A stretch of 32,000 nt of DNA from Candidatus Electronema halotolerans (GCA_942493095.1 OW818675.1:1710001-1742000); one strand, 5' to 3'; shown: positions 8,795 to 32,000, counted from the first letter of the stretch. A program made the numbers and translations. The notes: a model not told the origin generated them from the letters alone.

Positions 8795-11700
8795 TCACTG
8801 ACCACCTGTCGGCATAACGACTTTCCGGCAACAGGCATCCAGCCTTTCAACCAGCGCAGAGGGAGGAAGAGCAGCAAACACGCCGCTTGCTGGAGAAGAG
8901 GGAAAACTCATGCCGCGCAGGAAGAGATAGAAGACACCGCCGAAATGCTGTTCATAGCTGTAGCCGTTGAGCCGCTGGCCGAGAAAACGGTGCAACGCCA
9001 CAGTGTAGATCAGATATTGGAGATCGTAGCGATGCTCGTTCATGGCCGCAGTCAGCCGTTCCGGGCGGTAGTCTTCCGGCTGGCTGCCAAGATGATTGGA
9101 TTTGTAGTCAGCCAGATAATACTTGCCCTGCCAGCAGAAGATCAAGTCAATAAAGCCGGTCATCAGGCCGTGCAGGGTGCCGCTGCGTTCCGGCAGGGGC
9201 GCATGGCCGAAGTCGTGCAGCACGCGGTTGAATTGCTCAAGGCGTAACGATTCCAGCGGGAAATAAAAGGCCATCTCGTTGAGCCGTGCGCTCTCTTGCA
9301 GGCAGGAGAGCGACAAGCCGGGCAGCAGCGGACTGCGCAGCACCTCCTGCATCCACTCGCTCACAGTCGGCAGCCACGAATCCGCAAAACCGGCCCTCGC
9401 CAGCTGGCTGGCAATCACCTCAGCATGGCCGCTGCTGTCGCTGAAGCTGATCCGCTCCAGAATATTATGAAGGCAGGTCCCTGCTGCCGCGCCTTTGGGA
9501 AAGCCGAACACACCTTGATCAGGCGCAGGCAGAGCTGCTTCCTCTTCATCCGCCGCCTCATCATGATCCGGTTGCTCAGTGTGGCTGTCCTCCTTGCGGG
9601 AAGCCAAGCTGGAATAGCTGGTGATTCGCCACGTTGTGTCAATATGCTCCCGGAACTGCTTGGCTTGCAGCGACTCCTTTGTTTCCGAGGAGCGCAGGTC
9701 AGGCAGGGGCGGAAATGTCTCTGGCCAGGCTTTGACGGCCAGCGTCTCTCCCAGTCGGGCCAAGTCAGCAGCAAGCTGCGCTGAAGAGGGTTCGCCGCTG
9801 TGGAGCAAATAGGCCAACGCGCTGTCCTCCATGCTTTTAATCCAGCCCCAGCAGAAGAAGCAAGCGTGCGCCGCTCTGGTCACAGCCACATAGAGCAGGC
9901 GCAGGTCTTCGGCCAGCCGCTCGCGCTCCGCCAAGGCAAGATGCTCCTCGTTGCCGGAGCCAAGATCAAGGCAGAGGCGATCATCCGGGTCATGGAAGGT
10001 CAGCGGCTTGTCCTTGTCGCAGACCCGCGCTGACCAGAGAAAGGGCAGGAACACCAGCGGATATTCCATGCCCTTGGCCTTATGAATCGTAACGATCTTG
10101 ACTAAGTTCTCGTCGCTTTCCAAGCGGAGCTGCTGGCTTTCTGCCTGCCCTTCCGGGTGCTGCATCTGGTCGATGAACCAGCGCAGGAGCGCGTCCATGC
10201 CGGGCCGCTGCTTGGAAGCCTCTTGCAGCAGCTCGGCCAAGTGGAGGAAATTGGTCAGCATCCGCTCGCCAGACGGCTCGGCATAGAGGCGGCTGACCGT
10301 CTTCTGCTCGCTGAGAAGCTGCTGGAGCATGGCCAAGAAACCCTTTTCCAGCCAGAGCTTATGGTAGCGGTTCATGGCCTCCATGATCTGCTCCCGCGCC
10401 GAGTCGTTCTCGTTCAAGTCATAGATTCGCTCTGCTGTCCAGCCGAACAAGTCGCCAGCCAAGGCCGTGCGCATCAGGCTGGTATCGGACAAGTCGCTGA
10501 GGCTGGTCAGGAGGATGCGGAGCTGCTTGGCCTCCTGCGTGCTGAAGACTGAATCCCGATCGCCGGAGACGCTGGCAATGCCCAGCGCATGCAGCTCGCG
10601 GCGCACCAGCTCGGCCTCAACATGTGTGCGCACCAGCACGGCAATGTCACCGGAACTGAGGGGCTTGTCGCCGATCTTCGCCTCTCCAATCTGACCAGCG
10701 GTCAGCAGGCTGCCGATTTCTTGGGCACAGAAACGGGCAGCCAGTTCCTTAGCAGCTTCCTTGCTCAGGGCTTGACTGCCTTTCTTGCCCTGTCCTTCCG
10801 GCAGGAGTAGGCAGGTCAGAGCTGGCTGCGGCCTGCCGTCAACAAGAAATGCCTTCTGGCCTGCCTTGTCCGCCGCTTTGACGTGGGGAAAGTCAATTTT
10901 ATCTTTTGAAAAGAGAAAGGGGGCCTCATGCTCAAACAGGCGGCTCACCGCCGCCACCATTGCCGGACTGGAGCGATGATTCTCCATCATGGTCAGGCGG
11001 TTATGCGGCGGCGTGTCTTGACGGGCCTGGATGTAGGTGAAGATGTCCGCGCCCCGGAAGCTGTAAATAGCCTGCTTTGGGTCGCCGATCAGGAAGAGAC
11101 CGGCCCGCCAGCGGCGTTTCTGCCGCGCAGCCGCATGAATCGCATTGAAGATGCGGTACTGAAGCGGGTCGGTGTCCTGAAACTCATCCACCAAGATGAC
11201 TGGCAGCCGCCGGGCAATGCGCCAAGCCAGCTCCCCGCCTTCCGGGCCGCCCAGAGCCTTGGCCAGCCATGTTTGCAGATCGTCAAAACCAAGCTGGTTC
11301 TGCTCCTGCTTGCGCCGGGCCAGCTCGCTGCGCAGATAGTCCCGCGCTTCGACAAGGACAGCAATCTTGCGGCTGTTGAGCAGCTTTTCCTGCATCTGCC
11401 AGAACTGCTCAAAGAGATCAAAGAAAGGATGCTCCGGCGGTGCTTCCTTGCTTCTCTTTTGGAGAGAGTCGAGTATCTTGCTGCTCGTGAACAGCTCCAG
11501 CTCTTTGCCCAGCAACCAAGGCGATTCTGCCGCCTCAGCCAATCTGTCCATCTGCGCCAAGGCAGAGTCAAGCCGCTCCAAACCATAGCCTTTCTTATTA
11601 TCCCGTGAGAGCTTCTTGCTCTCCCGCAGCAGGCTGGCAATTTCCTCTCCTTGCTGCTGCCAGTGCTGCCGCACTTTCGCAAAGAGTCTGGTTGATTCCG

Positions 11701-12328
11701 CCTCCAGCCGGGCCAAGGTTTCCGGGCTGATCTCTGGCAGGCATTGCACGTCCTCCCGCTCCAGATGTCCGCCCAGCCCGGCCAGCAGCGCGGCAGGCTC
11801 CTGCCACTGTGACTGCACCCAAGCCGCCTCAGACTCGCCCGCCGGATAGAACTGTTGTCGCCAGAAGTCCTCGATGATGCGCGTCCGCAGCACAGCCTCG
11901 CTGTCGATCAGCTCCATCTCAAAAGGCGCGCCTGACTCAACAGCGTGCTCTTGCAGCATCCGGCGGCAGAAGCTGTGGATGGTGCGGACTGCGGCCTCAT
12001 CCATCCGGGTCAGGGCATCGTTGAGCAGCACCTTAGTCTGCTCATTCCGCCCGGCCTTGTCTAACAGTTTGTGGAGAAGCGGATCATTCGGCCCGCCGCC
12101 TTCCAGCACATCCAAAGCCTCCCGAATACGCTTGCGAATCCGATCACGCAACTCCTCCACTGCTGCGTCCGTGAAGGTGACAACAAGGATTTCATCGACC
12201 GCCAATTCCTGTTCGAGCAGGAGGCGGAGGAAGAGCAAGGCAATAGTGTAGGTCTTACCTGTGCCTGCGCTGGCTTCAATCAGAATCTGGCCGCGCAGAG
12301 GCAGGGTGAGGGGATTGAGGGGACGCAT
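8795..12328 (-). CDS. recB: Exodeoxyribonuclease V beta subunit RecB (UvrD-like helicase plus PD-(D/E)xK nuclease)
   Basis: 1177 aa. Walker A EASAGTGKTYTI, DEFQDT (motif II), and a C-terminal nuclease motif GFIDLIF...YYLADYKSN. No recC or recD lies next to it in this window. Confidence 0.92.
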   Translation of the reverse strand: MRPLNPLTLPLRGQILIEASAGTGKTYTIALLFLRLLLEQELAVDEILVVTFTDAAVEELRDRIRKRIREALDVLEGGGPNDPLLHKLLDKAGRNEQTKVLLNDALTRMDEAAVRTIHSFCRRMLQEHAVESGAPFEMELIDSEAVLRTRIIEDFWRQQFYPAGESEAAWVQSQWQEPAALLAGLGGHLEREDVQCLPEISPETLARLEAESTRLFAKVRQHWQQQGEEIASLLRESKKLSRDNKKGYGLERLDSALAQMDRLAEAAESPWLLGKELELFTSSKILDSLQKRSKEAPPEHPFFDLFEQFWQMQEKLLNSRKIAVLVEARDYLRSELARRKQEQNQLGFDDLQTWLAKALGGPEGGELAWRIARRLPVILVDEFQDTDPLQYRIFNAIHAAARQKRRWRAGLFLIGDPKQAIYSFRGADIFTYIQARQDTPPHNRLTMMENHRSSPAMVAAVSRLFEHEAPFLFSKDKIDFPHVKAADKAGQKAFLVDGRPQPALTCLLLPEGQGKKGSQALSKEAAKELAARFCAQEIGSLLTAGQIGEAKIGDKPLSSGDIAVLVRTHVEAELVRRELHALGIASVSGDRDSVFSTQEAKQLRILLTSLSDLSDTSLMRTALAGDLFGWTAERIYDLNENDSAREQIMEAMNRYHKLWLEKGFLAMLQQLLSEQKTVSRLYAEPSGERMLTNFLHLAELLQEASKQRPGMDALLRWFIDQMQHPEGQAESQQLRLESDENLVKIVTIHKAKGMEYPLVFLPFLWSARVCDKDKPLTFHDPDDRLCLDLGSGNEEHLALAERERLAEDLRLLYVAVTRAAHACFFCWGWIKSMEDSALAYLLHSGEPSSAQLAADLARLGETLAVKAWPETFPPLPDLRSSETKESLQAKQFREHIDTTWRITSYSSLASRKEDSHTEQPDHDEAADEEEAALPAPDQGVFGFPKGAAAGTCLHNILERISFSDSSGHAEVIASQLARAGFADSWLPTVSEWMQEVLRSPLLPGLSLSCLQESARLNEMAFYFPLESLRLEQFNRVLHDFGHAPLPERSGTLHGLMTGFIDLIFCWQGKYYLADYKSNHLGSQPEDYRPERLTAAMNEHRYDLQYLIYTVALHRFLGQRLNGYSYEQHFGGVFYLFLRGMSFPSSPASGVFAALPPSALVERLDACCRKVVMPTGGQ
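12252..12328. repeat. Direct repeat copy 1: the functional recB 5' end (codons 1-26)
   Basis: By hand alignment it matches 15688-15764 at 69 of 77 positions, including a 47-bp perfect core (12261-12307 = 15697-15743). Confidence 0.9.
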
Positions 12329-12344
12329 GGCCGGACAGGCTGCT

Positions 12345-12431
12345 CTATGCCAAGTCGTCCAAGAAGCGGCGGAGCCAAGACTGCGGCGTGGTCATGGCAT
12401 TGATTTCGGGCCGCCATTGAATCGTTGTCAT
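12345..12431 (-). CDS. Possible 28-aa leader or remnant ORF just upstream of recB
   Basis: MTTIQWRPEINAMTTPQSWLRRFLDDLA*, preceded by a good SD (AAGGAGAAACATC-ATG), ending 16 nt before the recB ATG. Too short to judge as coding; it could be a truncated gene left by the rearrangement described in findings. Confidence 0.25.
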   Translation of the reverse strand: MTTIQWRPEINAMTTPQSWLRRFLDDLA

Positions 12432-12581
12432 GATGTTTCTCCTTGTTTATTCAACTTGTTGAGATGACCGCTGAAACCTTTGCCCGCCCAATCTAAGACG
12501 GGACTGCGTTGCTGTCAACAGGTTTCTTGCCATGATGCGCAGGAAAAGCGGCGCGGCAGAAGCACCTTGGCAGTCGCAAAC

Positions 12582-12710
12582 CGAGCACTAAGGTGGTCGT
12601 GCAGCGGACAGGAGAGTGATCGTATATCGAGCACGAGAGTGGTTGGCAAACGATAACTCTGGTGATCGAAAAGTGACCACTCCGGTGCTCGCAGAAAAGG
12701 CACTCTCCTG
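12582..12710. repeat. Three copies of a 17-nt motif CGAGCAC-N4-GTGGTY (two direct, one inverted) nested in a 10-bp outer inverted repeat; candidate structured RNA or protein-binding array
   Basis: Copies at 12582-12598, 12628-12644 and 12675-12691 (inverted). Outer stem is caggagagtg 12609-12618 with cactctcctg 12701-12710. The inverted copy can pair with either direct copy. Confidence 0.5.
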
Positions 12711-13040
12711 CTTGGGCGCAGGGCAGGTGCTGGCGAAGAAAAAGCTGCTGCAACTAATGAAGTTTTGTCTTGCTCTTTTACACAGTTGGGATTAGGTTAT
12801 CTGCTTTGGTGCTGCCAGCATTCCGCTGGCTGGGCTGGAACATAAGCATTTCCTTTACAAAGAGGAGCATCATGAAAAAGCAAACGTATTGGCGGGTGCT
12901 GCTGGCGGCATCCTTTCTGCTGCTGCTGGCTGGCAGTGCAGCGCAGGCGGCTGACATCACAGTAGATGGAACTAACTGTACATTGCCAGATGCGATCACT
13001 GCGGCAAATAGCGATATAGCGGTTTCGTATTGAACAGATA

Positions 13041-13975
13041 TCAAACCCAGCAATGACGGAAAAACGATTTGATTGATTTTGACTTAACCGTTTTCAGAGA
13101 TATATCATAAGCTTCCATCAGCTCACGCTCTGTTCTCGGCTTCAATTTTCTTATAGTGTTTTTCATTACTGACCAGCAGTATTCAATAGGGTTCAGTTCA
13201 GGACGATAAGGAGGGAGGAAAATGATCTTCGCTCCTGTACTTCTGATCAAAGCGAGAGCTTCTTTGTTTTTATGAGGACTGGCATTGTCAAGAACGACTG
13301 TCTTACTGCTGTCAAGATATTTCAAAAGATAATTTTTTATATAGAAATAAAAGACATCTCCTGTCATGGTGCCTTTAAATTTCATGCACTTCAATATTTT
13401 TCCAAACTTTACAGCTCCTATCATGCTTATTCTTTTCCCTTTACCTGAAGGTCTTTTTGAAAAAGCTCTTGTTCCTTTTCTTGATCTTGCAAATTTTCTC
13501 GACATGTTCAAACAGCATCCTGTCTCATCAATAAAGATGAAATTCTTTTTGTCAGCCTCGATCAGGCCTGCAAGGTAATTAACTGTCTTTGCTATATTTT
13601 CTTCTTTATACGCCGCCGGATCGCGGAAAGTTTTTTTTTCCGGCTGATTTTCAGTCTGGCGAGAGTTTCGCACAGCGTGGAAGGTGCTATTTTTAAATTG
13701 AATTTCTCGTATAAGCGATCACACATCTCTTCAAGCGTAAGATCGTTCTCGTCATCAATCATGCTGGTCAGAAAAGGAATATGAACTTCCTTGATTTTCG
13801 GAGGATTTCCGCCTTTATGAGGCTTCGGCTCAATCGTCCCCTCAGTCTTCCATCTTTTTACAAGACTTTGAACAAATTTATAGGAAACGTCAAGCAAATC
13901 TGCAGTTCTTCTCAATGATTTCTGTTTTTCATAAACAGACAAGACTTTCTTTCTGAAATCAATAGAATAAATCAT
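13041..13975 (-). CDS. IS630-family DDE transposase, in two frames joined by a probable -1 frameshift at an A9 run
   Basis: OrfA 13592-13975: MIYSIDFRKKVLSVYEKQKSLRRTADLL... (HTH). OrfB frame 13041-13673 contains FIDETG, VLDNASPHK and LNPIEYCW (DD35E spacing by my count). Slipping -1 on CGG AAA AAA AAA gives ...ISRKKK-TFRDPAAY.... Confidence 0.8.
13631..13639 (-). other. A9 slippery run (T9 on the + strand): candidate programmed -1 frameshift site of the IS630 transposase, or a phase-variable or inactivating homopolymer
   Basis: The two transposase frames overlap exactly here. The fusion junction gives a plausible continuous RKKKT sequence. Confidence 0.5.
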
Positions 13976-15632
13976 GGCAGACCTCCGTGTGTGAAAAAAT
14001 GGAAAAAACAGACAAGTCAAGTTTAATCTTTTTCTGATAACCATACAACCTGAAACCGCTATACAGCAACAGGTGGCTGTACGGCAGGATCCGGCGACGA
14101 TACCATCACCTTGCAGGCGGATGTCACGCTTGCGGCTACCCTGCCGGATATTGTCAGCACGATGACCATTGAAGGCGGCGGTCACTTCATCAGCGGTAAT
14201 AATGATGAGAACGTTGGCAGCGTGCTGTATATAACCAGCGACGGAGACCTGACACTAAATGAGACTACGATCAAGGAGGGAAAGACGACAGGCGACGGCG
14301 GGGGGATTTACAACGATGGCACTGCCTATCTAACGAATTCCATAGTCAGCGGCAATACTGCCTCCTCCTCCTCCTCCGATGGCGGGGGGATTCAGAACAA
14401 GGGTGTTATCTATCTGACGAACTCCACAGTCAGCGGCAATACTGCCTCCTCCTCCTCCTTCTCCTCCGATGGCGGGGGGATTTACAACTATGGCACCGTC
14501 ACGCTGACGAATTCCACAGTCAGCAACAATACAGCCTCTTCCTCCTCCTTCTCCAATGGCAGTGGGATTTATAACGCAGGCACAGTCACGCTGACGAACT
14601 CCACGATCAGTGGCAATACTGCTTCCTCCACGTCCTCCGCCTCCTCCGGCGGTGGAATTTACAACTATGGCACAGTCACGCTGACGAACTCCACGATCAA
14701 TGGCAATACTGCTTCCTCCACGTCCTCCGACTCCTCCGGCGGTGGAATTTATAACGCAGGCACAGTCACGCTGACGAACTCCACGATCAGTGGCAATACT
14801 GCTTCCTCCACGTCCTACTCCTACGGCGGTGGGATTTACAACTATGGCAATGGCACAGTCACGGTGACGAATTCCACGATCAGCGGCAATACTGCTTCCT
14901 CCACGTCCTCCGCCTCATTCGGCGGTGGGATTTACAACTATGGCACAGACACAGGCACAGTCACGCTGCAAAGCTCCATCATCAGCGGCAATACGGCTTA
15001 TATTGTCAATGAAGTTTATAACAAAGATACATTCAATGCTGTAGTCAATGCCGCAAGCTTCAATATCTTTGGCCACAGCGGTGAGACAGACACAGAGGCA
15101 TTCTCTGGCTTCACACCAGGTAGCAGCGATGTCACTGCTACCAGTGACGGCGACACACCGACTACGCTGGATGCCATTCTCAATACAACCTTGGCGGACA
15201 ATGACGGCCCTACGCAAACTCATGCCTTAGTTGCGGGCAGTCCAGCTATTGATCTGGACAAAGATTGCAGCACTGAGCTGACCGAGGATCAACGCGGCTA
15301 TACCCGCCCAGTCGGTGCGGGCTGCGATGCAGGATCGTTTGAATCTGCTGATATTACAGTTATTTTTACTGTTACACCGAACGCCGGTACCGGCGGCAGC
15401 GTCACTCCTGATACAGCTCAGACTGTTGCTGATGGCAGTACGGCCAGCTTCACCGTCACACCGGATGCAGGTTACAGTGCTGATGAAGTAGTCAGCGGCA
15501 CCTGTCCCGAAGGTAGCTGGGACGGCAGCATATACACCACTGGTCAGATAGATGCGGACTGCACTGTTGAGTTCAGCTTCATCGCCGACAAGAAGAAGAT
15601 AAACATGGTGCCCATCTACAAGCTGCTGCTGC

Positions 15633-15764
15633 TCAAGTGAGCGAAGCGGAAAGTGCCGCCGCCTTCGGCTCCGGCCAGCAGGGCAATGTCTTGCCCGTGC
15701 CTGCGCTGGCTTCAATCAGAATCTGGCCGCGCAGAGGCAGGGTAAGAGGATTAAGCGGGCACAT
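15633..15764 (-). pseudogene. recB: Orphan truncated copy of the recB 5' end (recB')
   Basis: The minus strand reads MCPLNPLTLPLRGQILIEASAGTGKT, then diverges (LPCWPEPKAAALSASLT*). The genuine RecB starts MRPLNPLTLPLRGQILIEASAGTGKTYTIALL. Outside the 47-bp identical core the differences are mostly synonymous third-position changes. Confidence 0.8.
15688..15764. repeat. Direct repeat copy 2: the orphan recB 5' end
   Basis: See copy 1 (12252-12328). The two copies are offset by 3436 bp. Confidence 0.9.
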
Positions 15765-15790
15765 GAGAGATGTTCACCGCAGCACAGCCA

Positions 15791-17233
15791 TCAGAACAGC
15801 AGCAGCCGCACTCCCGGCAGAAATTTCGGTTTGATTGGTGAAGCGATAAAGGTCAGATTGCCGCTCTCCGGGTAGCTGACAGCACCTTCAGAGTTGCTCG
15901 CCTCCACGTGCCAGTAATTGGTGCCGTCATTGGTCAGATCGGCTCCATAAGGAACTGTCGCACTGCAATAGCTGTTGCTGATTTCGCCTGCAACAGAAGC
16001 GGATGTATTGCTGTCTGTGCCGTAATGAATAATGCAGTTATCCGCATTGGCAATATTTATCCGCAGCTGCTGGGTAGAGGCGTTGTATGAAGACACCTTT
16101 GCATCGTCTGCGGGAGATGGACTGGAAAGCGTTGGCAGCCCACTCGGCCAGCCCATGTCCTTGAGCATGCCTTTGGCCACTGGGCCAGGATCATGCACAG
16201 CCTCGCCATTGCTGATTGCCCAGACCATAAGCTGGTTGACGGTGTTGTTGAAGGTGTCGTAATCAAGATGAGAATAACTGGAACCAGGTTTCCATGTGGC
16301 AGGCGCATAAATTTTCACCCGCTGGCCGCCATTGGCTGTCATGGCGTTCGGGCCGTGAAACCAAAGGTCTCCTGAACGCAAAGCCGTGCCAAGGGCAACA
16401 GACGGGGCCGTGTAGGACACAATATCCTTGCCTGCGCCATCTTTGACAAACACATCGTAAATATTAGGAAAGCCACCTTCACCTTCGGCAGGTTCCCAAA
16501 AACCTGAACCCTCCTGGCTGGTGCTGTCATAGCTTGCAGTGCCAGAGAAATTCAAGCCATGCGCAATTTCATGCAGGACTACTGTGAGCATGTCCATCTG
16601 ATCTGACGGCGGGTTTCCATCCACACCATAATACCAAGTAAAATTTCTGTTGTAGGTGATATGCATATCTGGGTTTTCAGTATCTAAATCTTTTCCTGCC
16701 AAGGCATTCGCCAATGATACAGAATACCAAGTCTCACTTCTTGGAGCAGCGGCAAAGTCACGCACCATATTTCCTGCGCCCGAATACCCTAAGGTTGAGG
16801 ATTCCCCAAAATCACTCCAGCAGGCCCGGATCGTGACAGGCACATCAGACTTGATGATATTTCCCCAGATGCTGGCTGCCGCCTCAAAGGCAGCTTTGGC
16901 TTCTTCTGGAAAAGTATAGCAGTTTGCTCCCAAAATATCCGTACCACCGGAGGTGACATAGTCGATAGTGAAGGTGGCAGAAGCAGTCTGTGCAGCAGTC
17001 ATCAGGTTGATTGCCGCAGGAATTTTCAGCGGATTCTGGCTGATGTTCGGATCGAAAACCACAACAAGAGGCTGCGAGCCGTTCATCAATGTCTTGCCAT
17101 CCGCAGACAGCTTGGCGGGCAGCGGTTGAGGAATATAAACTTCCTCTCTGCTTGCAGCATGACTTTGCACGGCAGCAAATACGGTCAGCATTGCTGCAAC
17201 AGTTACGATAGATTGCACTTTCATTTTTTTCAT
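15791..17233 (-). CDS. Secreted zinc metalloprotease-like protein (HExxH)
   Basis: Signal peptide MKKMKVQSIVTVAAMLTVFAAVQSHAAS. Zinc motif VVLHEIAHGLNF. C-terminal beta-rich domain. Start set at ATG 17233; the listed ORF start at 17263 is a TTG. Noticeably more AT-rich than the core genes. Confidence 0.75.
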   Translation of the reverse strand: MKKMKVQSIVTVAAMLTVFAAVQSHAASREEVYIPQPLPAKLSADGKTLMNGSQPLVVVFDPNISQNPLKIPAAINLMTAAQTASATFTIDYVTSGGTDILGANCYTFPEEAKAAFEAAASIWGNIIKSDVPVTIRACWSDFGESSTLGYSGAGNMVRDFAAAPRSETWYSVSLANALAGKDLDTENPDMHITYNRNFTWYYGVDGNPPSDQMDMLTVVLHEIAHGLNFSGTASYDSTSQEGSGFWEPAEGEGGFPNIYDVFVKDGAGKDIVSYTAPSVALGTALRSGDLWFHGPNAMTANGGQRVKIYAPATWKPGSSYSHLDYDTFNNTVNQLMVWAISNGEAVHDPGPVAKGMLKDMGWPSGLPTLSSPSPADDAKVSSYNASTQQLRINIANADNCIIHYGTDSNTSASVAGEISNSYCSATVPYGADLTNDGTNYWHVEASNSEGAVSYPESGNLTFIASPIKPKFLPGVRLLLF

Positions 17234-17296
17234 TTTGTTGAAGTTGCCTGTTGTCTTCTGCAACAGATAGTCTTTACAAGACGCATTATGTTTTTC

Positions 17297-18538
17297 TCAC
17301 AGCCGCCTGCCGAAATGCAGCACGCTTTTGGCGATGACTGCGCCGGTGTGGGACTGGGTCCAGTCATGGTGGCGGTCATCAAAGGGCAGAAAGACTAAGG
17401 AGGCGGCCTGTGCTGCCGGGGCCGCGCCGGAGAGCTGGGAATATATTTCACGTCCGCTGGCGGCGCAGGCAGCCAGCACCACTTTGAGTGATTGCAAGGC
17501 CTCGCTGCGGGGCAGAGTCACTGGATGCGGACTGACCAGCTCCTTGATTTTTGTCTGCCGCTCCGGCAGCAAATACCGCTGACTGATGGTGAGCTGCTTG
17601 CTGACCCGGAGAAACATTTCCGGGCGCAGCTTGAAGGCTGGAATCCAGAACTGCATGGCCTGCCGCCGCCACTCCGGGCGCGGCACCAGCGGCTGGTTGG
17701 TGCGCTCGATGAAATCTGCAAAGCTGCGGAGGCGCAAGGAAGGGAATTGGACAGCAATTTTCCAGAACGGCAGATGCAGGGCCGCCTGCCAATCGTTAGG
17801 AACGACTTTGCAGGCCACTCCCTCCAAGGCATCTTTGCCAATCTGCCAGGCCGTGTCGCAGTTGGGGCAGAGCGGGACAAGGCAGTCGCCCTCGCCGTCC
17901 AGTGTGCCGCCGCAGCGTGGACAGAGGGCGGCGAGAAATCGGGTTTGCCAATGGGGCTGAACGGGAACACCGTTTTTCAGCACTCCGACGGAACTGGGCA
18001 GCGGTTCGCCCAGCACTGCGTCAAACAGCCCGTCTTCTCGCGGCAGCAGCGGCAGATAGATAAAGCTGACTGTCTCGCCGATATAGGCATGGTGATGGAC
18101 CTGCTTCTCAGCATGGCCTTCCATCAGATTGTGCAGCTTGGTGGCCTTGAAGAAAATATCTCTGACTGTAAGAGCGAGCGGCAAAAAGCGGCCCTTGGTT
18201 TCGCTGTGAACTCGCACTAATTTCATGGCTTGAGGTCGGAGGCCGAGGGAGGCGGGCAGGCCCGGCTGACCGCAGCCATCGTGAGTGGTGTCCAAGACCC
18301 GGTAGGAAACCCCGCTGTCTGTCACAGAAAAGACAGTGCCTTTGAAGCGCAGATAGGGCGCGTAAATCAGGCGGGCCTGATCTTTGGCCCGGTTGGGCAA
18401 GGCATAGCGGAACGGCGCGCCGCCGGTGAGGAGAAAACTTTTGACCTTGCAGTAGGGACAGGTGAGCAGGCGGTCGTCTGCATCTAACGTGACCGGGCCG
18501 CCGCACTGCGGGCAGGGCTGCTCGACCCGCAGGCTCAC
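17297..18538 (-). CDS. Hypothetical protein with two zinc ribbons (apparent internal duplication)
   Basis: A GTG start at 18538 overlaps the stop of the upstream SPFH gene (GTGA). ZnR1 is CPQCGGPVTLDADDRLLTCPYC and ZnR2 is CPRCGGTLDGEGDCLVPLCPNC. Each is followed ~25-30 aa later by a hydrophobic P-[YF]-[LW]-[RK] segment (IYAPYLRFKG / LHLPFWKIAV). Confidence 0.7.
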   Translation of the reverse strand: MSLRVEQPCPQCGGPVTLDADDRLLTCPYCKVKSFLLTGGAPFRYALPNRAKDQARLIYAPYLRFKGTVFSVTDSGVSYRVLDTTHDGCGQPGLPASLGLRPQAMKLVRVHSETKGRFLPLALTVRDIFFKATKLHNLMEGHAEKQVHHHAYIGETVSFIYLPLLPREDGLFDAVLGEPLPSSVGVLKNGVPVQPHWQTRFLAALCPRCGGTLDGEGDCLVPLCPNCDTAWQIGKDALEGVACKVVPNDWQAALHLPFWKIAVQFPSLRLRSFADFIERTNQPLVPRPEWRRQAMQFWIPAFKLRPEMFLRVSKQLTISQRYLLPERQTKIKELVSPHPVTLPRSEALQSLKVVLAACAASGREIYSQLSGAAPAAQAASLVFLPFDDRHHDWTQSHTGAVIAKSVLHFGRRL

Positions 18539-19656
18539 AGCTTCAAGCCGCAGCCATTGCAGAACTTGGCTCCGGGCAGATTCTCCTGCTTGCAGGCCGC
18601 GCAGATGATCGCGGCAGGCTTTTGATCCGCAGGCTGGCCGCAGCGGGAGCAGAACTTGGCTCCGGGAGTGAGATTCTTGCCGCAGTTGGCGCACTGCATG
18701 AGGACAATCTGCTGATGACCGCAGAGCGGGCAGAAACGGGCCTGAGCCGGAATCGAGTTGCCGCAGTCAGAGCAGCGGCTGACCGCCGCAGAAGCTGCTT
18801 GCCCTGCTGTTCCCTGCTGTAGTCCCGCGAACATGGCAGGCATCATCAGGCCCATGCCCAGCCCCAATCCAGCTCCGGCCTCGCCGCCGCTCTGGGCCGC
18901 CTTTTCCATAGCCATTGCCGCTTTCATGCGGACAAACTTGTCCATGTCCTTGATCACGCCAAGGCGACTGCGGTCGTCAATCGCGGCCTGCACCTCTTCC
19001 GGCGGCGTGATGGAGGAGATGTACAGCTCATCCAAGGCCAGACCAAGCCGGACAAAATCCCGGACCAGCCGTTTGCGCATCTCCAAGGCCATCTCGTCAA
19101 ACTGAGACGGCAGGCTGAACAGGGTGTCAACAGTTTCGCCAAGATAGTCGTTGAGCCGGGAAACAATCACCCGGCCCAGATACTCTTCAATCTGATCCGT
19201 ATTGTATTTGCCCATTGTCCCAGCCAAGGTGTTGATGAACAGCACTGGCTGGATGACCCGGATGTTGCAAATCCCGTGCGCCCGCAGGCGGACAAAGCCC
19301 AGCTCTGAGTCGCGGAAGGCCATGGGATCGCGGGTGCCCCATTTCAGATTGGGAAAGAGCTTGAGATTGACAAAATAGACCTCAGCCCGCAGCGGGCTGC
19401 TCATGCCCCACGGCGCGGAAAACAGCTTGGTGATGATCGGAATGTTGCCGGTGCGCAGGGTGTGGCGGCCCGGGCCAAAGACATCGCCAGCCCGGCCTTT
19501 GTAATACAAAACCGCTGCCTGGCTTTCGCGCACCGTGAGCTGGGCACCGAACTTGATTTCGCCGGAACCTTTTTCCGGCAGGCGGTGGAGCAGCTCCTGG
19601 CCGCTCTCATCAAACCATTCCAGATTTTCCAGCAGAATCAGGTTGTCGGCACTCAT
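18535..19656 (-). CDS. SPFH (stomatin/prohibitin/flotillin/HflKC) domain protein of the COG4260 'virion core protein-like' type, with three C-terminal zinc ribbons
   Basis: ATG 19656 with GGAG 5 nt upstream. LENLEWFDESG...EIKFGAQLTVRESQAAVLYYKG...KWGTRDP...RLRAHG is characteristic of this family. Gly/Ala/Met linker. The tail has CSDCG-x9-CPLCG, CANCG-x9-CSRCG and CAACK-x9-CNGCG. Confidence 0.85.
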   Translation of the reverse strand: MSADNLILLENLEWFDESGQELLHRLPEKGSGEIKFGAQLTVRESQAAVLYYKGRAGDVFGPGRHTLRTGNIPIITKLFSAPWGMSSPLRAEVYFVNLKLFPNLKWGTRDPMAFRDSELGFVRLRAHGICNIRVIQPVLFINTLAGTMGKYNTDQIEEYLGRVIVSRLNDYLGETVDTLFSLPSQFDEMALEMRKRLVRDFVRLGLALDELYISSITPPEEVQAAIDDRSRLGVIKDMDKFVRMKAAMAMEKAAQSGGEAGAGLGLGMGLMMPAMFAGLQQGTAGQAASAAVSRCSDCGNSIPAQARFCPLCGHQQIVLMQCANCGKNLTPGAKFCSRCGQPADQKPAAIICAACKQENLPGAKFCNGCGLKL

Positions 19657-19711
19657 TGCAGCTCCATTTGAAAAAAGCAAAGCATTCTCACAGCCCGGTC
19701 AGCAGAACAAC

Positions 19712-19969
19712 TCAGTCAATATCCGGCTTGCGGTAGTATTTCACGTTTTCCGAATGAGTTGGCGGCGGCTCCTCGTTCAGAACCCTGTTGATGCGGCTGG
19801 GCATCTTTGTCACCGGCTCTTTCATGATCAATTCATAGCCGATGGAAAAGACCAGCAGGAATCCCGCAAGCATGAACAATTTCTTTTTTCGCCACTCTGA
19901 GGGCAGAAAGATAAGCCCAACAGTGGCGGCAATCATAATGTAGAGATGATACTCGACCAGCATGGACAT
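19712..19969 (-). CDS. Small (85 aa) two-TM membrane protein, hypothetical
   Basis: Strong SD (GAGGAGGG 8 nt upstream of the ATG). Two hydrophobic helices (YIMIAATVGLIFL, LFMLAGFLLVFSIGY) and a charged tail. Lies 55 nt upstream of the SPFH gene on the same strand. Confidence 0.6.
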   Translation of the reverse strand: MSMLVEYHLYIMIAATVGLIFLPSEWRKKKLFMLAGFLLVFSIGYELIMKEPVTKMPSRINRVLNEEPPPTHSENVKYYRKPDID

Positions 19970-20024
19970 GAGCTGCGCCCTCCTCTGTATTTTTTTGCAA
20001 TCAAGTCATCGACAATAAATAATC

Positions 20025-21413
20025 TTAGTTCTTGGCCAGCACGTCAAAATCCATTGCTTCAGCATAGCGGAGCAGCCAAGTCATATCAATGCCGCGTCCT
20101 TTGACAGTGACAATGAACCGGCTGGCAACCACGATATTGATCTCGCCGCTGTGTTCCTCTTCATTGTATTTTATCATGGCCCGCTGCCTTTTGATGGTCT
20201 TGAGGTTGCCGCCTGAAGCTCCTGCGAAAAGCGGATTGTTGAGCATCATGATAATGGATTGCAGAACCGGAGAATCAGAAACAATCTCAATGGAAATCAC
20301 AGAGCCGTTCTGGGTGAAATAATCACGGCTGACAGTTGAGCCGCCGCCGAAAACAGCAGTGCCAAGGGATTGCGACACAGCTTCTTTGGCCTGCCAGCCG
20401 TAAAACGGTTCCGGCAGCAATTTCTTGAGCAGTTCGGTTTTTTTCTGGCGGATCAGGTGGGCGGCGTAATCAAGATTGGAAACCGCGCCTGCGAAATCCT
20501 TGCTCCTGTACTGCCGCATGGCCTCTTCAACAGCAGCAACAATGTCATCCTGCGCTGCTGGAGGGGCAAGAACAGGGGCAGGAAACGCCGGGCTGCCGGA
20601 CTGCTGCACTGCTTGTTGTCCAGCAGAAGCAGAGGTCATGGCCGGCAGAACTGCCTGCGGTGCTGAGGAGGCGGGCAAGCTCTGCGGCGGTTCAGGCACA
20701 GGCCAGCCTGAGTCTTGCCTGAACTGCGGTTGTGCTCTATTTTGCGACTGCGCCGGAGAACTGCCGCTGTTCTGCTGCCTGTTGGGAACAGCGGCTGGAG
20801 AGACGGACTGCGGCTGGCTTGGCACCGAAGCGGCTGGCTTTTCCGGCAGCTGCTCCTTAACAGGGGCTTGCGCCTCAATGACGACAATCTCCTGATCAGG
20901 ATAGGCGGACCAAGTTGACGGTTGGCCCGCGCCCTGCGCCGGAACAGCACTGTCCTGCTGCCTGTTGGGAACAGCGGCTGGAGAGACGGACTGCGGCTGG
21001 CTTGGCACCGAAGCGGCTGGCTTTTCCGGCAGCTGCTCCTCAACAGGGGCCTGCGCCTCAATGATGACAGCTTCCTGAGCCGGGGCAGCGTTGTTCTGCT
21101 GTCCGCTGGAAAGAGCATCAGCAGGAGCTGCGGCGGCAGGCTCTGCCTGCGGGGTTGTTTTTTCCTCAGCAGGCAGTTCCTGAGCCGGGGCATCAGCAGA
21201 AGGCTGCGTTTCCTGCGGGGAGTCTTGATCCACAAGCTGCCAAATATCAATGGCTTGAATAAGCGCATCGTCCTGAGACTGCTGCGGAGTGCTGCTGTCG
21301 GCAGCTTGAGTCGTTGGCATTTGCTCATCTGCTGCTGCTGCCGACAGCGGGCCGCTTGCTGCCAAGGCCAGTAAAACAACAGCAAAAACAGGCTTCCTGA
21401 TGGTCTGTTTCAT
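20025..21413 (-). CDS. Secreted protein with a long P/Q/A/S-rich low-complexity region (internal tandem duplication) and a globular C-terminal domain of unknown function
   Basis: Signal peptide MKQTIRKPVFAVVLLALAASGPLSAAAA. The duplicated segment IEAQAPV[EK]EQLPEKPAASVPSQPQSVSPAAVPNRQQ occurs twice. The C-terminal ~170 aa (…LPEPFYGWQAKEAV…IVVASRFIVTVKGRGID…) is not low-complexity. Confidence 0.75.
   Translation of the reverse strand: MKQTIRKPVFAVVLLALAASGPLSAAAADEQMPTTQAADSSTPQQSQDDALIQAIDIWQLVDQDSPQETQPSADAPAQELPAEEKTTPQAEPAAAAPADALSSGQQNNAAPAQEAVIIEAQAPVEEQLPEKPAASVPSQPQSVSPAAVPNRQQDSAVPAQGAGQPSTWSAYPDQEIVVIEAQAPVKEQLPEKPAASVPSQPQSVSPAAVPNRQQNSGSSPAQSQNRAQPQFRQDSGWPVPEPPQSLPASSAPQAVLPAMTSASAGQQAVQQSGSPAFPAPVLAPPAAQDDIVAAVEEAMRQYRSKDFAGAVSNLDYAAHLIRQKKTELLKKLLPEPFYGWQAKEAVSQSLGTAVFGGGSTVSRDYFTQNGSVISIEIVSDSPVLQSIIMMLNNPLFAGASGGNLKTIKRQRAMIKYNEEEHSGEINIVVASRFIVTVKGRGIDMTWLLRYAEAMDFDVLAKN
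20748..21069. repeat. Tandem duplication, two copies, period ~183-186 bp, inside the secreted P/Q-rich protein gene
   Basis: 20772-20886 and 20955-21069 differ at 3 of 115 positions by my alignment. Confidence 0.85.
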
Positions 21414-30339: not shown

Positions 30340-32000
30340 TCAAAAGGCAGGCTGTGCTCTTCCGCACTCCAGAACCCTGCCGTCTGTTGCGCACTGCGCT
30401 GCTCCCTGTTCTCTGGTGATCCAGACCGCAATATGCCGCTCCTGCCAGAGGGCAAGATTTGTCGCTGCCGGGAAATGCTCCTGCCGATACCCTGTTCCGG
30501 CGGAAACCACAATCAGCTCTGGTCTGACCGCTGCCAGAAACGCTTCGCTGTTTGAGGTGCTGCTGCCATGATGCGCGGCCAGAAGCATATCCGCCTGCAA
30601 GTCCTCGTTTTTTTGGATAAGCAGTTGTTCGCTGCGCTTGCCGATGTCGCCGGGCAGGAGAAAAGCCCGTTGCCCGTGCTGATAACGAAGCACCAGCGAG
30701 GCATCGTTGACATCCCCTCCCGGAGCTGCGCCGTGCAGGACGGTCAGAGCAAAGTCCTTGCCCTGCGCCAGCCGTTGTTTGTTCTCAGGAATCAGCACGC
30801 GGATGCCCTGCCCTGCTGCCTGATCAAGAATCTGCTGATAATTCCCCTCCCGGTGCGCGTCACCGTTAATCCAGAGCTGCTTGGGCCGGAAATGGCAAAG
30901 GATGAAGTCCATGCCGCTGAAATGGTCGCTGTGCGGATGGCTGATCACGGCCTGATCCAGCCGCCAGATGCGCTGGCTCCAGAGATACGGCCCGATGACC
31001 TGCTCGCCGATTTTGGCCGCTGTGCTGCCGCCGTCGGCAAGAATACGGGTGCCGTCCGGCAAATGGAGAAATGCCGATGAGCCTTGGCCGATATCCAAGA
31101 TTGTGACCTGACTGCGGCCCGGTCGTTCTGGCAGCCAGAGTCCCCACGTAAAATGGAGAACAAGGAGGGCTGCGCCGAGCAGCGCGGTTTTGCGACGATG
31201 CAGCGTCCAGAGCAGGAGCAGCAGGAAATACGCAAGAATTTCCCAACTGCTGGGCCTGATTGTCCAGACCGAAGCCCACGGCAGGGCGGCTCCTTGGCCA
31301 ACGCACCATTGCCCGGCTGCAAGACCGAGGCTGCCGATCTTGAGCAGCACGATGGCGAGCGGCGGAGAGATGAAAATGCAGGGAATGGCTGCCAAGCCCC
31401 ACGGCAAGGCCCAGAAGCAAAGCAGCGGCTCGATCAGCAGGTTCAGCAGCGGGCTGATCAGCGAAATGCGGTGGAAATGGAAGAGCATCAGCGGCAGGGT
31501 GCCCAAGGTTGCGGCAATGGAGGCCATGAATAGCGGCACCAGCCAGCGGGCAATAATGCCTTTTTTCTCTTCCGAATCTGGCGGCAGAATCTGGGGCAGG
31601 AAGAGAATCAAAGCGGCGACTGCACTGAAAGAGAGCTGAAACGAGGCCGTGAACAGGGTCAGCGGATTGCTGGCTAAAACCAGCAGGGCGGCGGCAGCAA
31701 GCAGGTGCAGCAGGTTGTGCTGGCGGCGGAGCAGCGCAGCGGCAAGGAGAATCGCGGCCATGACCACCGCCCGCAGCACCGGCGTGTTCATCCCGGCAAT
31801 CAGGGCGTAGGTGAAGAGCAGCGGCAGGGTGCCCAGCAGGGCCAAGCTCGGCAGATGGCTGTGCAGGAGCAGCCAGCGCGACCGTCCCAAGAGCCAGCGG
31901 AGCAGTGTGGCGGCCAGCAGGGCGAGCAGGCCGACATGCAGGCCGGAAATCGCCAAGATGTGCATGGTGCCGGTGGCCTTGAACTGCTCCAGCAGTTCCG
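30340..32000 (-). CDS. comEC: DNA internalization competence protein ComEC/Rec2 (C-terminal part; 5' end off-window)
   Basis: Competence-domain motif ILAISGLHVG, polytopic membrane region, and a C-terminal metallo-beta-lactamase domain (VISHPHSDHFSG). The frame stays open to the window edge. Confidence 0.85.
   Translation of the reverse strand, partial: ELLEQFKATGTMHILAISGLHVGLLALLAATLLRWLLGRSRWLLLHSHLPSLALLGTLPLLFTYALIAGMNTPVLRAVVMAAILLAAALLRRQHNLLHLLAAAALLVLASNPLTLFTASFQLSFSAVAALILFLPQILPPDSEEKKGIIARWLVPLFMASIAATLGTLPLMLFHFHRISLISPLLNLLIEPLLCFWALPWGLAAIPCIFISPPLAIVLLKIGSLGLAAGQWCVGQGAALPWASVWTIRPSSWEILAYFLLLLLWTLHRRKTALLGAALLVLHFTWGLWLPERPGRSQVTILDIGQGSSAFLHLPDGTRILADGGSTAAKIGEQVIGPYLWSQRIWRLDQAVISHPHSDHFSGMDFILCHFRPKQLWINGDAHREGNYQQILDQAAGQGIRVLIPENKQRLAQGKDFALTVLHGAAPGGDVNDASLVLRYQHGQRAFLLPGDIGKRSEQLLIQKNEDLQADMLLAAHHGSSTSNSEAFLAAVRPELIVVSAGTGYRQEHFPAATNLALWQERHIAVWITREQGAAQCATDGRVLECGRAQPAF

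What the first reader, a model, noticed from the sequence alone, without database searches (positions are those of the whole stretch)
12252..15764. Second, decayed copy of the recB 5' end lies 3.4 kb upstream of recB, bracketing accessory DNA
Seen directly:
- 12252-12328 (recB codons 1-26) recurs at 15688-15764, matching at 69 of 77 positions with a 47-bp perfect core.
- Outside the core, almost all differences are synonymous third-position changes (CCC/CCG, CTC/CTT, CCC/CCT). This suggests the two copies come from different recB alleles rather than a fresh tandem duplication.
- The distal copy (MCPLNPLTLPLRGQILIEASAGTGKT...) loses the RecB frame right after the Walker A lysine.
- The distal copy sits 26 nt downstream of the metalloprotease gene stop, as though that gene was once the direct upstream neighbour of recB.

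The bracketed 3.4 kb carries a micro-ORF with a strong SD, a three-copy structured motif, and an IS-disrupted secreted adhesin-like gene.

Inference: a foreign segment recombined into the first ~80 nt of recB and brought its own replacement 5' end. This is the logic of integrative islands that target gene ends and repair them. No integrase is present, so it would be a remnant or a non-canonical event. recB also has no adjacent recC or recD here.
Basis: partly seen in the sequence, partly recalled or inferred. Interest (0 to 1): 0.7.

Follow-up and report, generated by a model that had tools for sequence, protein, structure and literature searches.

The report
Eroded leftover of a second recB
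A short, decaying leftover of the start of a second, diverged recB gene sits 3.4 kb upstream of the working recB in a cable bacterium. It is a real scar of an old recombination between two recB versions, not a mobile island, so it is well documented but ordinary.

Summary
In detail: 12252-12328 recurs at 15688-15764 with 69 of 77 identical bases and a 47-bp perfect core. After a 7-nt deletion the distal copy runs on to recB nt 95. It is not an artefact. The window comes from the long-read closed genome of Ca. Electronema halotolerans. An independent JGI contig spans adhesin end, recB', and metalloprotease end. Two Logan contigs break where a k=31 graph would branch on a second copy.

The island reading is not supported. 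There is no integrase, and nothing similar occurs in plasmids or phages. The bracketed DNA (adhesin gene, conserved promoter, micro-ORF) is the normal upstream neighbour of recB in the closest relatives, at the same divergence as recB.

The orphan is a remnant of a different recB allele that was once functional:
- Nine of 10 substitutions are synonymous.
- It is no closer to its neighbour than to other species' recB.
- In a sister strain it probably continues to about recB nt 320 with further deletions.

The contrast between core and flanks (0/47 against 10/41 differences, p=2.5e-4) points to homologous exchange in the core.

Best reading: recombination between two diverged recB alleles made a partial duplication, and the redundant copy is now being eroded by deletions. 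Low interest.

The parts
8795..12328 (-). Functional recB (1177 aa), exodeoxyribonuclease V beta subunit.
   Evidence: TIGR00609 scores 1015 bits against a cut-off of 696. Pfam finds UvrD-helicase, UvrD_C and PDDEXK_1. It is 100% identical to the Ca. Electronema halotolerans protein P0001.
12252..12329 (-). Proximal repeat copy: recB nt 1-77 plus the base before the ATG.
12261..12307 (.). 47-bp tract identical to 15697-15743. Probable crossover or gene-conversion tract.
   Evidence: One search gives the coordinates. One search gives 0/47 differences in the core against 10/41 in the flanks (p 2.5e-4), the most extreme of 55 pairs of recB 5' ends.
12345..12431 (-). 28-aa micro-ORF with an AAGGAG Shine-Dalgarno sequence. 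Its stop lies 16 nt before the recB ATG. Its coding status is doubtful.
   Evidence: It is present at the same place in L082 (75% aa identity). Window against L082 shows 7 non-synonymous and 1 synonymous change (by inspection). There are no Pfam or NCBIfam hits.
12490..12518 (-). Sigma-70-like promoter match (TTGACA-17-TAGATT) upstream of the micro-ORF and recB.
   Evidence: Both hexamer regions are conserved in L082.
12583..12690 (.). Three copies of GAGCAC-N4-GTGGT, spaced 46-47 nt apart with the third inverted, in the divergent intergenic region. Probably operator sites.
   Evidence: 3 matches against 0.36 expected, and none of 100 shuffles reached 3. No Rfam match.
12872..13016 (+). 5' part of the secreted adhesin-like gene (signal peptide).
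   Evidence: Joined to 14064-15640 it gives an open 573-codon frame.
13017..14063 (-). IS630-family insertion sequence. It has terminal inverted repeats, a TA target duplication (13015-16 / 14062-63), and a transposase in two overlapping ORFs. It is a later, separate event.
   Evidence: Pfam DDE_3 and HTH_Tnp_IS630. Inverted repeats are pair I2. GC is 0.36-0.40. Junctions are shown.
14064..15640 (+). 3' part of the adhesin-like gene: 30-aa tandem repeats, a choice-of-anchor Q domain and PMP repeats.
   Evidence: The C-terminal region is mosaic between strains.
15641..15676 (-). Spacer between the adhesin stop and recB'. It probably holds the last residue of a decayed recB segment (nt ~236-320), most of which is lost here.
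   Evidence: Strain L088 has 46 + 19 more nt here, and its spacer aligns colinearly to recB nt 236-300 of L082 and L081. The score is 19.5 against shuffles of 11.0 +/- 1.5 over the first 600 nt. Over the whole gene the shuffles give 12.7 +/- 1.6 with a maximum of 21.5.
15677..15764 (-). Orphan recB' remnant: recB nt 1-76, a 7-nt deletion (between 15688 and 15689), then nt 84-95. Codon 2 is Arg->Cys in this strain only.
   Evidence: The same deletion and the same inner end occur in L088. The start of the remnant is present in L083 and L084.
15765..15790 (-). 26-nt spacer between the metalloprotease stop and the remnant ATG.
   Evidence: It is identical in L083, L084 and L088. It is absent from L085, whose homology to the window ends at 15790.
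15791..17263 (-). Secreted metalloprotease-like gene, the last gene of a conserved SPFH / zinc-ribbon / metalloprotease block.
   Evidence: NF038122 weak hit. Synteny is conserved in L083-L087.

Best explanation
The distal copy is a non-functional remnant of a second, diverged recB allele that is being eroded by deletions.

Inferred history:
- Two recB alleles from different lineages of the same cable-bacteria clade recombined. One was linked to the SPFH / zinc-ribbon / metalloprotease block. The other was linked to the clade's usual upstream neighbours, namely the adhesin gene, promoter and micro-ORF.
- The exchange happened by homologous recombination in the longest tract of perfect identity, the Walker-A-coding 47 bp. 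The likely route is a Campbell-type or insertion-duplication event after DNA uptake.
- The result was a partial tandem duplication: metalloprotease -> recB' (5' piece of at least 95 nt, probably at least 320 nt) - adhesin <- promoter / micro-ORF -> complete recB.
- The complete copy keeps working from its own conserved promoter.
- The cut-off copy has since lost 7 nt, about 140 nt, and in this strain a further 46 + 19 nt.
- An IS630 element later split the adhesin gene.

Shown here: the repeat, its reality, its allelic divergence, its erosion, the conserved adhesin-recB linkage, and the absence of any integrase.

Inferred only: the direction of transfer, the circular or linear form of the incoming DNA, and whether the perfect core is the original crossover or later gene conversion.
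For: Reality of the arrangement:
- The genome was closed with Nanopore reads plus Illumina polishing.
- JGI contig L088 spans adhesin end, spacer, recB', the 26-nt spacer and the metalloprotease end. It carries the same 7-nt deletion and the same inner boundary.
- Logan contigs L083 and L084 (99.25% identical to the window) run from the metalloprotease gene into recB'. They stop exactly 30 nt after the last base that distinguishes the two copies.

Different alleles that were once functional:
- Nine synonymous substitutions against one non-synonymous.
- The distal copy is 9/90 from L081 and from L082, and 12/90 from its own neighbour.
- The L088 spacer matches recB nt 236-320 of L082 (72 matches, 11 mismatches) and L081 (70/14) better than the adjacent recB (62/24).

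Exchange in the core: 0/47 differences against 10/41 in the flanks (p 2.5e-4). Orthologue pairs with similar flank divergence have 4-11 core differences.

Erosion: a 7-nt gap, a gap covering recB nt 96-235, and strain-specific gaps of 46 and 19 nt.

The bracket is recB's usual neighbour:
- L082 has adhesin <- micro-ORF -> recB, with uniform 0.75-0.92 identity and a conserved promoter.
- L081 has an adhesin-like gene divergent from recB.

The metalloprotease block is native: it is syntenic in L085, V4 and L087.

No integrase is present. A ComEC competence gene lies in the window at 30340..31965.

There is an analogous scar in another genome: L081 has a recB 3'-end remnant 5.26 kb downstream of its recB.
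Against: - No relative shows metalloprotease -> recB, so the 'resident' arrangement is only inferred.
- Identity of window to L082 is uniform through the micro-ORF and recB, so no donor/resident boundary is visible beyond the first 95 nt.
- The extension of the remnant to nt ~320 rests on a gapped alignment of moderate significance. One of 300 shuffles beat it when the whole gene was the target.
- Decay is uneven. Nt 1-95 carry one indel and about 6% substitutions against L082, while the putative nt 236-320 part carries many indels. This needs gene conversion, some constraint, or a partly spurious alignment to explain it.
- With so few informative sites, the mosaic predicted by a single crossover cannot be demonstrated.
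Confidence: 0.62

Rival explanations
1. Remnant of a site-specific integrative island that targets the 5' end of recB and supplies a replacement 5' end. The two copies would be attL and attR, and the integrase would since have been lost.
For: Direct repeats bracket 3.4 kb. The perfect 47-bp core has diverged flanks. Homology between the copies starts at the ATG. The working gene is repaired and has its own promoter inside the bracket.
Against: There is no tyrosine or serine recombinase in the bracket or in the 32-kb window. The bracketed genes are the conserved neighbours of recB in L082 and L081 at the same divergence as recB. The segment has no occurrence in plasmids or phages. The orphan probably extends to nt ~320 with internal deletions, unlike an att site. 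The analogous scar in L081 is at the other end of recB.
Confidence: 0.07
2. In-situ tandem duplication of the recB 5' region within this lineage, followed by divergence and deletion, with no second allele involved.
For: The copies are directly oriented and close together. Ongoing deletional erosion is documented.
Against: The copies differ by about 10%, almost only at synonymous sites, which a pseudogene would not show. The distal copy is not closer to its neighbour than to the recB of other species. Its nt 236-320 part is closer to L082 and L081. The relative L085 lacks it after the metalloprotease gene.
Confidence: 0.1
3. Two complete recB genes (one native, one acquired) once lay in tandem without any exchange between them. 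The upstream one was then deleted down to a stub. The perfect core would come from later gene conversion or from conservation alone.
For: The stepwise deletions, the diverged allele, and the recB 3' stub in L081 all fit loss of a redundant copy.
Against: It needs an unexplained initial placement of a second recB exactly beside the first. Conservation alone does not give 0/47 when the flanks show 10/41. In practice it differs from the best explanation only in the first step.
Confidence: 0.15
4. Assembly artefact: a chimeric or collapsed junction in a metagenome-derived genome.
For: The genome is a metagenome-assembled genome.
Against: It was closed with long reads. The independent JGI contig L088 crosses the whole junction. 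Logan contigs from two runs enter the remnant from the metalloprotease side.
Confidence: 0.01

Closest known systems
Campbell-type insertion-duplication: single homologous crossover of DNA that carries an internal or 5' gene fragment.
   Same: There is one truncated and one complete copy in direct orientation flanking the inserted DNA. The exchange lies in the longest identical tract. The complete copy acquires the incoming upstream region.
   Different: No vector or circle is known here. The incoming DNA looks like the ordinary recB upstream region of a related cable bacterium. The copies are about 10% diverged. The event is natural and old enough for deletional decay.
Gene displacement in situ with pseudogene remnants, and deletional decay of redundant bacterial genes.
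   Same: A stub of a diverged allele lies next to an intact homologue. The substitutions are those of a formerly selected gene. The stub is shrinking stepwise by deletions, and it sits at a synteny breakpoint.
   Different: Here only the 5' few hundred nt may ever have been duplicated. Which allele is the incomer cannot be told.
Genomic islands that integrate into the 5' end of a protein gene and restore it, for example dusA-specific integrase islands (recalled from the literature, not tested here).
   Same: Direct repeats of a gene's 5' end bracket extra DNA, and the gene stays intact with a substituted 5' end.
   Different: There is no integrase. The cargo is not mobile and is not variable relative to recB. 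The repeat is not a short clean att site. No empty site or independent copy was found.
Homology-facilitated illegitimate recombination during natural transformation.
   Same: Diverged DNA from a relative is anchored by a short conserved stretch and brings non-homologous neighbouring DNA with it. A ComEC gene is present in the window.
   Different: The classical products replace DNA rather than duplicate the anchor. No microhomology junction could be identified.

Membership tests
Site-specific integrative island targeting a gene end | An integrase or recombinase gene at one end of the bracketed segment. | tested here: not met
   Pfam on all major ORFs of the bracket and of the 32-kb window finds only an IS630 DDE_3 transposase inside the adhesin gene.
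Site-specific integrative island targeting a gene end | The segment is variably present: close relatives have an empty site, or the segment occurs elsewhere as a unit. | tested here: not met
   The adhesin / micro-ORF / recB linkage is shared with L082 and partly with L081. Three strain haplotypes all carry the remnant. There are no plasmid or phage matches. No empty site was found.
Site-specific integrative island targeting a gene end | Short att repeats that end at the recombination site. | tested here: inconclusive
   A 47-bp perfect core exists. However, the orphan continues to nt 95 and probably to about nt 320 with deletions in L088.
Campbell-type insertion-duplication by homologous recombination | Direct repeats of the homologous fragment flank the insert, one truncated and one complete. 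| tested here: met
Campbell-type insertion-duplication by homologous recombination | Both copies are reciprocal mosaics of two parental alleles around the crossover. | tested here: inconclusive
   The core-versus-flank contrast is significant. The distal 3' flank is identical to L082, while the proximal 3' flank has 4 differences. The 5' flanks do not discriminate.
Pseudogene remnant of a displaced or redundant homologue | Loss of reading frame and truncation, with substitutions that reflect past purifying selection. | tested here: met
   A 7-nt deletion and truncation. Nine synonymous changes against one non-synonymous.
Pseudogene remnant of a displaced or redundant homologue | Progressive deletional erosion visible between strains. 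| tested here: met
   The window lacks 46 + 19 nt that are present in L088. The 7-nt and ~140-nt gaps are shared.
RecB (exodeoxyribonuclease V beta), for the intact gene | A full-length match above the curated cut-off, with helicase and nuclease domains. | tested here: met
   TIGR00609 scores 1015.5 bits against a cut-off of 696. Pfam finds UvrD-helicase, UvrD_C and PDDEXK_1.
IS630 family, for the element splitting the adhesin gene | A DDE_3 transposase with an IS630 helix-turn-helix domain, terminal inverted repeats, and a TA target duplication. | tested here: met
   domains; inverted-repeat pair I2; TA on both sides. Removing 13017-14063 restores the reading frame.

The most novel reading that the evidence does not exclude
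recB ends may serve repeatedly as portable homology arms in this clade of cable bacteria. The extremely conserved 5' (Walker A) and 3' ends of recB would let diverged lineages exchange whatever lies next to recB, such as surface adhesin genes or a 5-kb tail-collar / dynamin-like cassette. They might also let recB alleles themselves be replaced again and again.

This would explain two observations. Two of the three closest genomes carry recB-end stubs from diverged alleles: a 5' stub here and a 3' stub in L081. Both flanks of recB differ in every species examined. A driver such as selection on RecBCD by phage inhibitors is conceivable but untested.
Probability: 0.12. Interest if true: 0.5.

Novelty: new member of a known kind. 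Interest (0 to 1): 0.2.

Why it matters
The finding mainly bears on genome annotation and on reading cable-bacteria genomes.
- The 43-codon ORF at 15633..15764 should be treated as a recB pseudogene fragment, not as a gene.
- The working recB is probably transcribed from a promoter at about 12490-12518, next to a divergently oriented adhesin gene.
- The locus is a small, well-resolved example of recombination between diverged lineages followed by stepwise deletional decay, seen in three strain haplotypes.
- If recB-end scars turn out to be common in this clade, they would mark recB as a recurrent exchange point for neighbouring surface-protein genes.

On present evidence it is an ordinary recombination scar.

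Tried and rejected
- Rfam, on the whole window at gathering thresholds and on 12300-12900 at E<=5: no RNA family.
- tRNA/tmRNA scan for a possible att target: none found.
- Search for a third recB fragment in the window: none by blastn or tblastn.
- Exact look-up of the RecB product and of P0001: not on record.
- Two metagenome pattern scans, one for the conserved recB 5' core and one for the remnant-specific junction: 0 hits each.
- blastn of 12329-15687 against plasmids and phages: no match.
- Synteny search around recB in L001-L006: no shared neighbour on either side, so there is no empty site to compare.
- Sliding identity of window against L081 and L082, looking for a donor/resident boundary inside recB: none visible.
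- Search for a continuation of the window's own 36-nt spacer in recB: not significant on its own. Only the longer L088 spacer gave a signal.
- Folding of the recB leader 12329-12500: not more stable than shuffles, z = 0.37.
- Pfam and NCBIfam on the micro-ORF: nothing.
- Idea that the recB' stub marks the boundary of a strain-variable cassette: rejected. Against L088, identity stays at about 99% through the last 90 nt of the adhesin gene and drops only further inside it.

Full report
**Source and gene identity**

The RecB product of 8795..12328 (minus strand) is 100% identical to a protein of Candidatus Electronema halotolerans on a 3.2-Mb contig. That genome was closed from Nanopore reads with Illumina polishing (PMC10030654). 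The gene is a bona fide recB: TIGR00609 scores 1015 bits against a cut-off of 696, and Pfam finds UvrD helicase and PD-(D/E)XK nuclease domains.

- 12252-12328 and 15688-15764 match at 69 of 77 positions, with a perfect 47-bp core at 12261-12307 / 15697-15743.
- The repeat finder reports the same pair as a 78-nt direct repeat at 90% identity.
- The window has no third copy at either the DNA or the protein level.
- After the Walker A lysine codon, the distal copy has a 7-nt deletion and then continues colinearly to recB nt 95, at window position 15677.
- By codon inspection, 9 of the 10 substitutions between the copies are synonymous. The one exception is Arg2Cys.

**The arrangement is not an artefact**

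- JGI metagenome contig L088 (1,114 nt, from a different sample) spans the adhesin 3' end, the spacer, recB', the 26-nt spacer and the metalloprotease 3' end. It has the same 7-nt deletion and the same inner boundary. It is 100% identical to the window on the metalloprotease side.
- Two Logan contigs, L083 and L084, are 99.25% identical to window 15717-20801. They run from the SPFH / zinc-ribbon / metalloprotease genes into recB'. Both end exactly 30 nt after the last base that distinguishes the distal from the proximal copy.
- That end point is where a k=31 de Bruijn graph would branch if a second copy exists. The value of k is from my own knowledge of Logan.
- At least three strain-level haplotypes therefore carry the stub.

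**What the bracketed DNA is**

- The adhesin-like gene (12872-13016 plus 14064-15640) has a choice-of-anchor Q domain and PMP-type repeats.
- It is split by an IS630-family element at 13017-14063. That element has inverted repeats, a TA duplication, and GC of 0.36-0.40. Removing it restores the reading frame, so it is a later and unrelated event.
- The rest of the bracket is not foreign to recB. In the closest relatives found, the same neighbourhood occurs.
- L082 (RecB 84% identical) has the micro-ORF directly upstream of recB and a divergent adhesin-like gene beyond it.
- L081 (RecB 88% identical) has a divergent adhesin-like gene whose C-terminus matches the window's, but it has no micro-ORF.
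- Identity between window and L082 is uniform (0.75-0.92 per 100 nt) from the micro-ORF through the whole of recB.
- A sigma-70-like promoter match (TTGACA-17-TAGATT, 12518..12490), the leader and the SD sequence are conserved in L082.
- So adhesin <- promoter / micro-ORF -> recB is an inherited unit of this clade, and the working recB probably uses that promoter.

**The other side**

- The SPFH / zinc-ribbon / metalloprotease block is also native. It is syntenic in L085 (89% nt identity), in the closed genome of Electronema sp. V4 (L086), and in L087.
- In none of these is the metalloprotease gene followed by recB. In L085, homology to the window ends exactly at the stop codon (15790). V4 continues with YjeF and L087 with TatC.
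- In L001-L006 (RecB 63-78% identical), neither flank of recB shares any gene with the window.
- The stub therefore sits at a junction between two blocks that are each conserved elsewhere but not adjacent there.

**Nature of the stub**

- It is no closer to the adjacent recB (12/90 differences) than to the recB of L081 or L082 (9/90 each).
- Its differences are almost all synonymous. This is the signature of divergence while both sequences were functional genes, not of a pseudogene drifting in place.
- In L088 the spacer between recB' and the adhesin stop is 65 nt longer than in the window.
- That spacer aligns colinearly with recB nt 236-300 of L082 and L081. The score is 19.5 against 11.0 +/- 1.5 for shuffles over the first 600 nt of the gene. 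Over the whole gene the shuffles give 12.7 +/- 1.6, and one of 300 beat the real score.
- At the homologous position it fits L082 (72 matches, 11 mismatches) and L081 (70/14) better than the window's own recB (62/24).
- I take this as probable, not certain, evidence for two things. The stub once covered at least about 320 nt of recB. It has been shrinking by deletions: 7 nt, about 140 nt, and in the window's lineage a further 46 and 19 nt.

**Evidence for exchange in the core**

- The two copies show 0 differences in the 47-bp core and 10 in the 41 comparable flanking positions (Fisher p = 2.5e-4).
- This is the most extreme contrast among all 55 pairs of recB 5' ends compared. Orthologue pairs with similar flank divergence have 4-11 core differences.
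- Conservation of the Walker A region alone therefore does not explain the perfect core. A crossover, or later gene conversion, in that tract does.
- The 3' flank of the stub is identical to L082, whereas the 3' flank of the working gene carries four private changes. This fits a reciprocal mosaic, but the 5' flanks do not discriminate.

**Most likely history**

Two diverged recB alleles recombined homologously in their longest identical tract. One was attached to the metalloprotease block. The other carried the clade's usual upstream neighbours. The result was a partial duplication in which the complete gene kept, or received, the adhesin-side promoter region, while the cut-off 5' piece remained behind the metalloprotease gene and decayed.

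A ComEC gene lies in the window (30340..31965), so uptake of DNA from relatives is at least plausible.

I cannot tell which allele was resident. I also cannot tell whether the incoming DNA was circular, or whether the perfect core is the original crossover or later conversion.

The integrative-island framing does not survive, for these reasons:
- There is no recombinase anywhere in the window.
- The segment does not occur independently.
- No empty site was found.
- The cargo is recB's ordinary neighbour.
- The repeat is not att-like.

**An analogous scar elsewhere**

In L081, the last ~130 nt of recB plus 55 nt beyond the stop (5422-5607) recur at 10684-10869. That copy is 82% identical and has a frame-breaking indel. 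About 5.26 kb lies between, encoding a beta-flower-like protein, a tail-collar-domain protein and a dynamin-like GTPase. That stub is again about as far from its own recB as from the window's recB (83.7%).

Two stubs in three closely related genomes, together with the complete lack of synteny around recB across the genus, leave open that recB ends are recurrent exchange points. With this sample size it may equally be coincidence.

**Verdict**

The finding is real and well resolved. It is an ordinary kind of object: a recombination scar and decaying gene fragment.

Noticed in passing
L081:5422-5607 and L081:10684-10869: In the relative with 88% identical RecB, the recB 3' end plus 55 nt past the stop is repeated 5.26 kb downstream (82% identity, with an indel). 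It brackets genes for a Bflower_2-like protein, a 595-aa unknown, a phage tail collar-domain protein and a dynamin-like GTPase. This mirrors the window's 5' stub.
   Followed up: partly
window 12345-12431 (minus strand) and L082:765-848: The micro-ORF is kept with the same length and stop in L082, but the two differ by 7 non-synonymous and only 1 synonymous change. The nucleotide stretch GCCATGACCACGCCGCAGTCTTGGC is identical in both. Conservation may act on the leader DNA or RNA rather than on a peptide. The leader's fold is no more stable than shuffles (z = 0.37).
   Followed up: partly
window 12583-12690; L082:~560-700: Three copies of GAGCAC-N4-GTGGT (46-47 nt apart, the third inverted) lie between the divergent adhesin and micro-ORF/recB starts. 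L082 has a different repeated palindromic motif (AAGGnnCCTTGCCG-like) at the equivalent place. These look like lineage-specific operator arrays.
   Followed up: partly
window 13592-13673: The IS630 transposase is split into two overlapping ORFs around a run of nine T (plus strand, ~13634-13642). This could be a programmed frameshift, a real inactivation, or a homopolymer error of R9.4.1 Nanopore assembly.
   Followed up: no
window 15050-15640 vs L088:157-738: The adhesin C-terminal region is a mosaic between strains that are otherwise 100% identical next door. The last ~90 nt are 99% identical and 15366-15415 is 92% identical. Elsewhere identity is 64-76%. The L088 ORF is only 214 aa, with unrelated AT-rich sequence upstream. 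This suggests rapid recombination among adhesin paralogues.
   Followed up: partly
window 8795-8825: Homology of the window's recB to L081 and L082 ends about 27 nt before the stop codon. The window protein has a private 10-13-residue tail (…RKVVMPTGGQ). All three close relatives have different genes downstream of recB: murJ here, a Bflower-like gene in L081, and a class II tRNA-synthetase-like gene in L082.
   Followed up: partly
L081:1-672: A PDDEXK_2 (Rpn/YhgA-like 'transposase' nuclease) gene lies next to the 3' end of the adhesin-like gene upstream of recB in L081.
   Followed up: no
window 15744 and 15761: The window's stub has two private C->T changes (in the recB sense, one giving Arg2Cys) and two private deletions. 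By contrast, the adjacent 200 nt of the metalloprotease gene are identical to L088. This fits relaxed constraint on the stub. Alternatively, L083 and L088 were converted by their proximal copy.
   Followed up: partly
L001:9710-9933: Tandem 69-nt repeats (93% identical) lie immediately upstream of recB in Ca. Electronema sp. KV.
   Followed up: no
window 30340-31965: A ComEC/Rec2-type competence gene (Competence plus metallo-beta-lactamase domains) lies in the window. It is relevant only as a hint that DNA uptake is possible.
   Followed up: no
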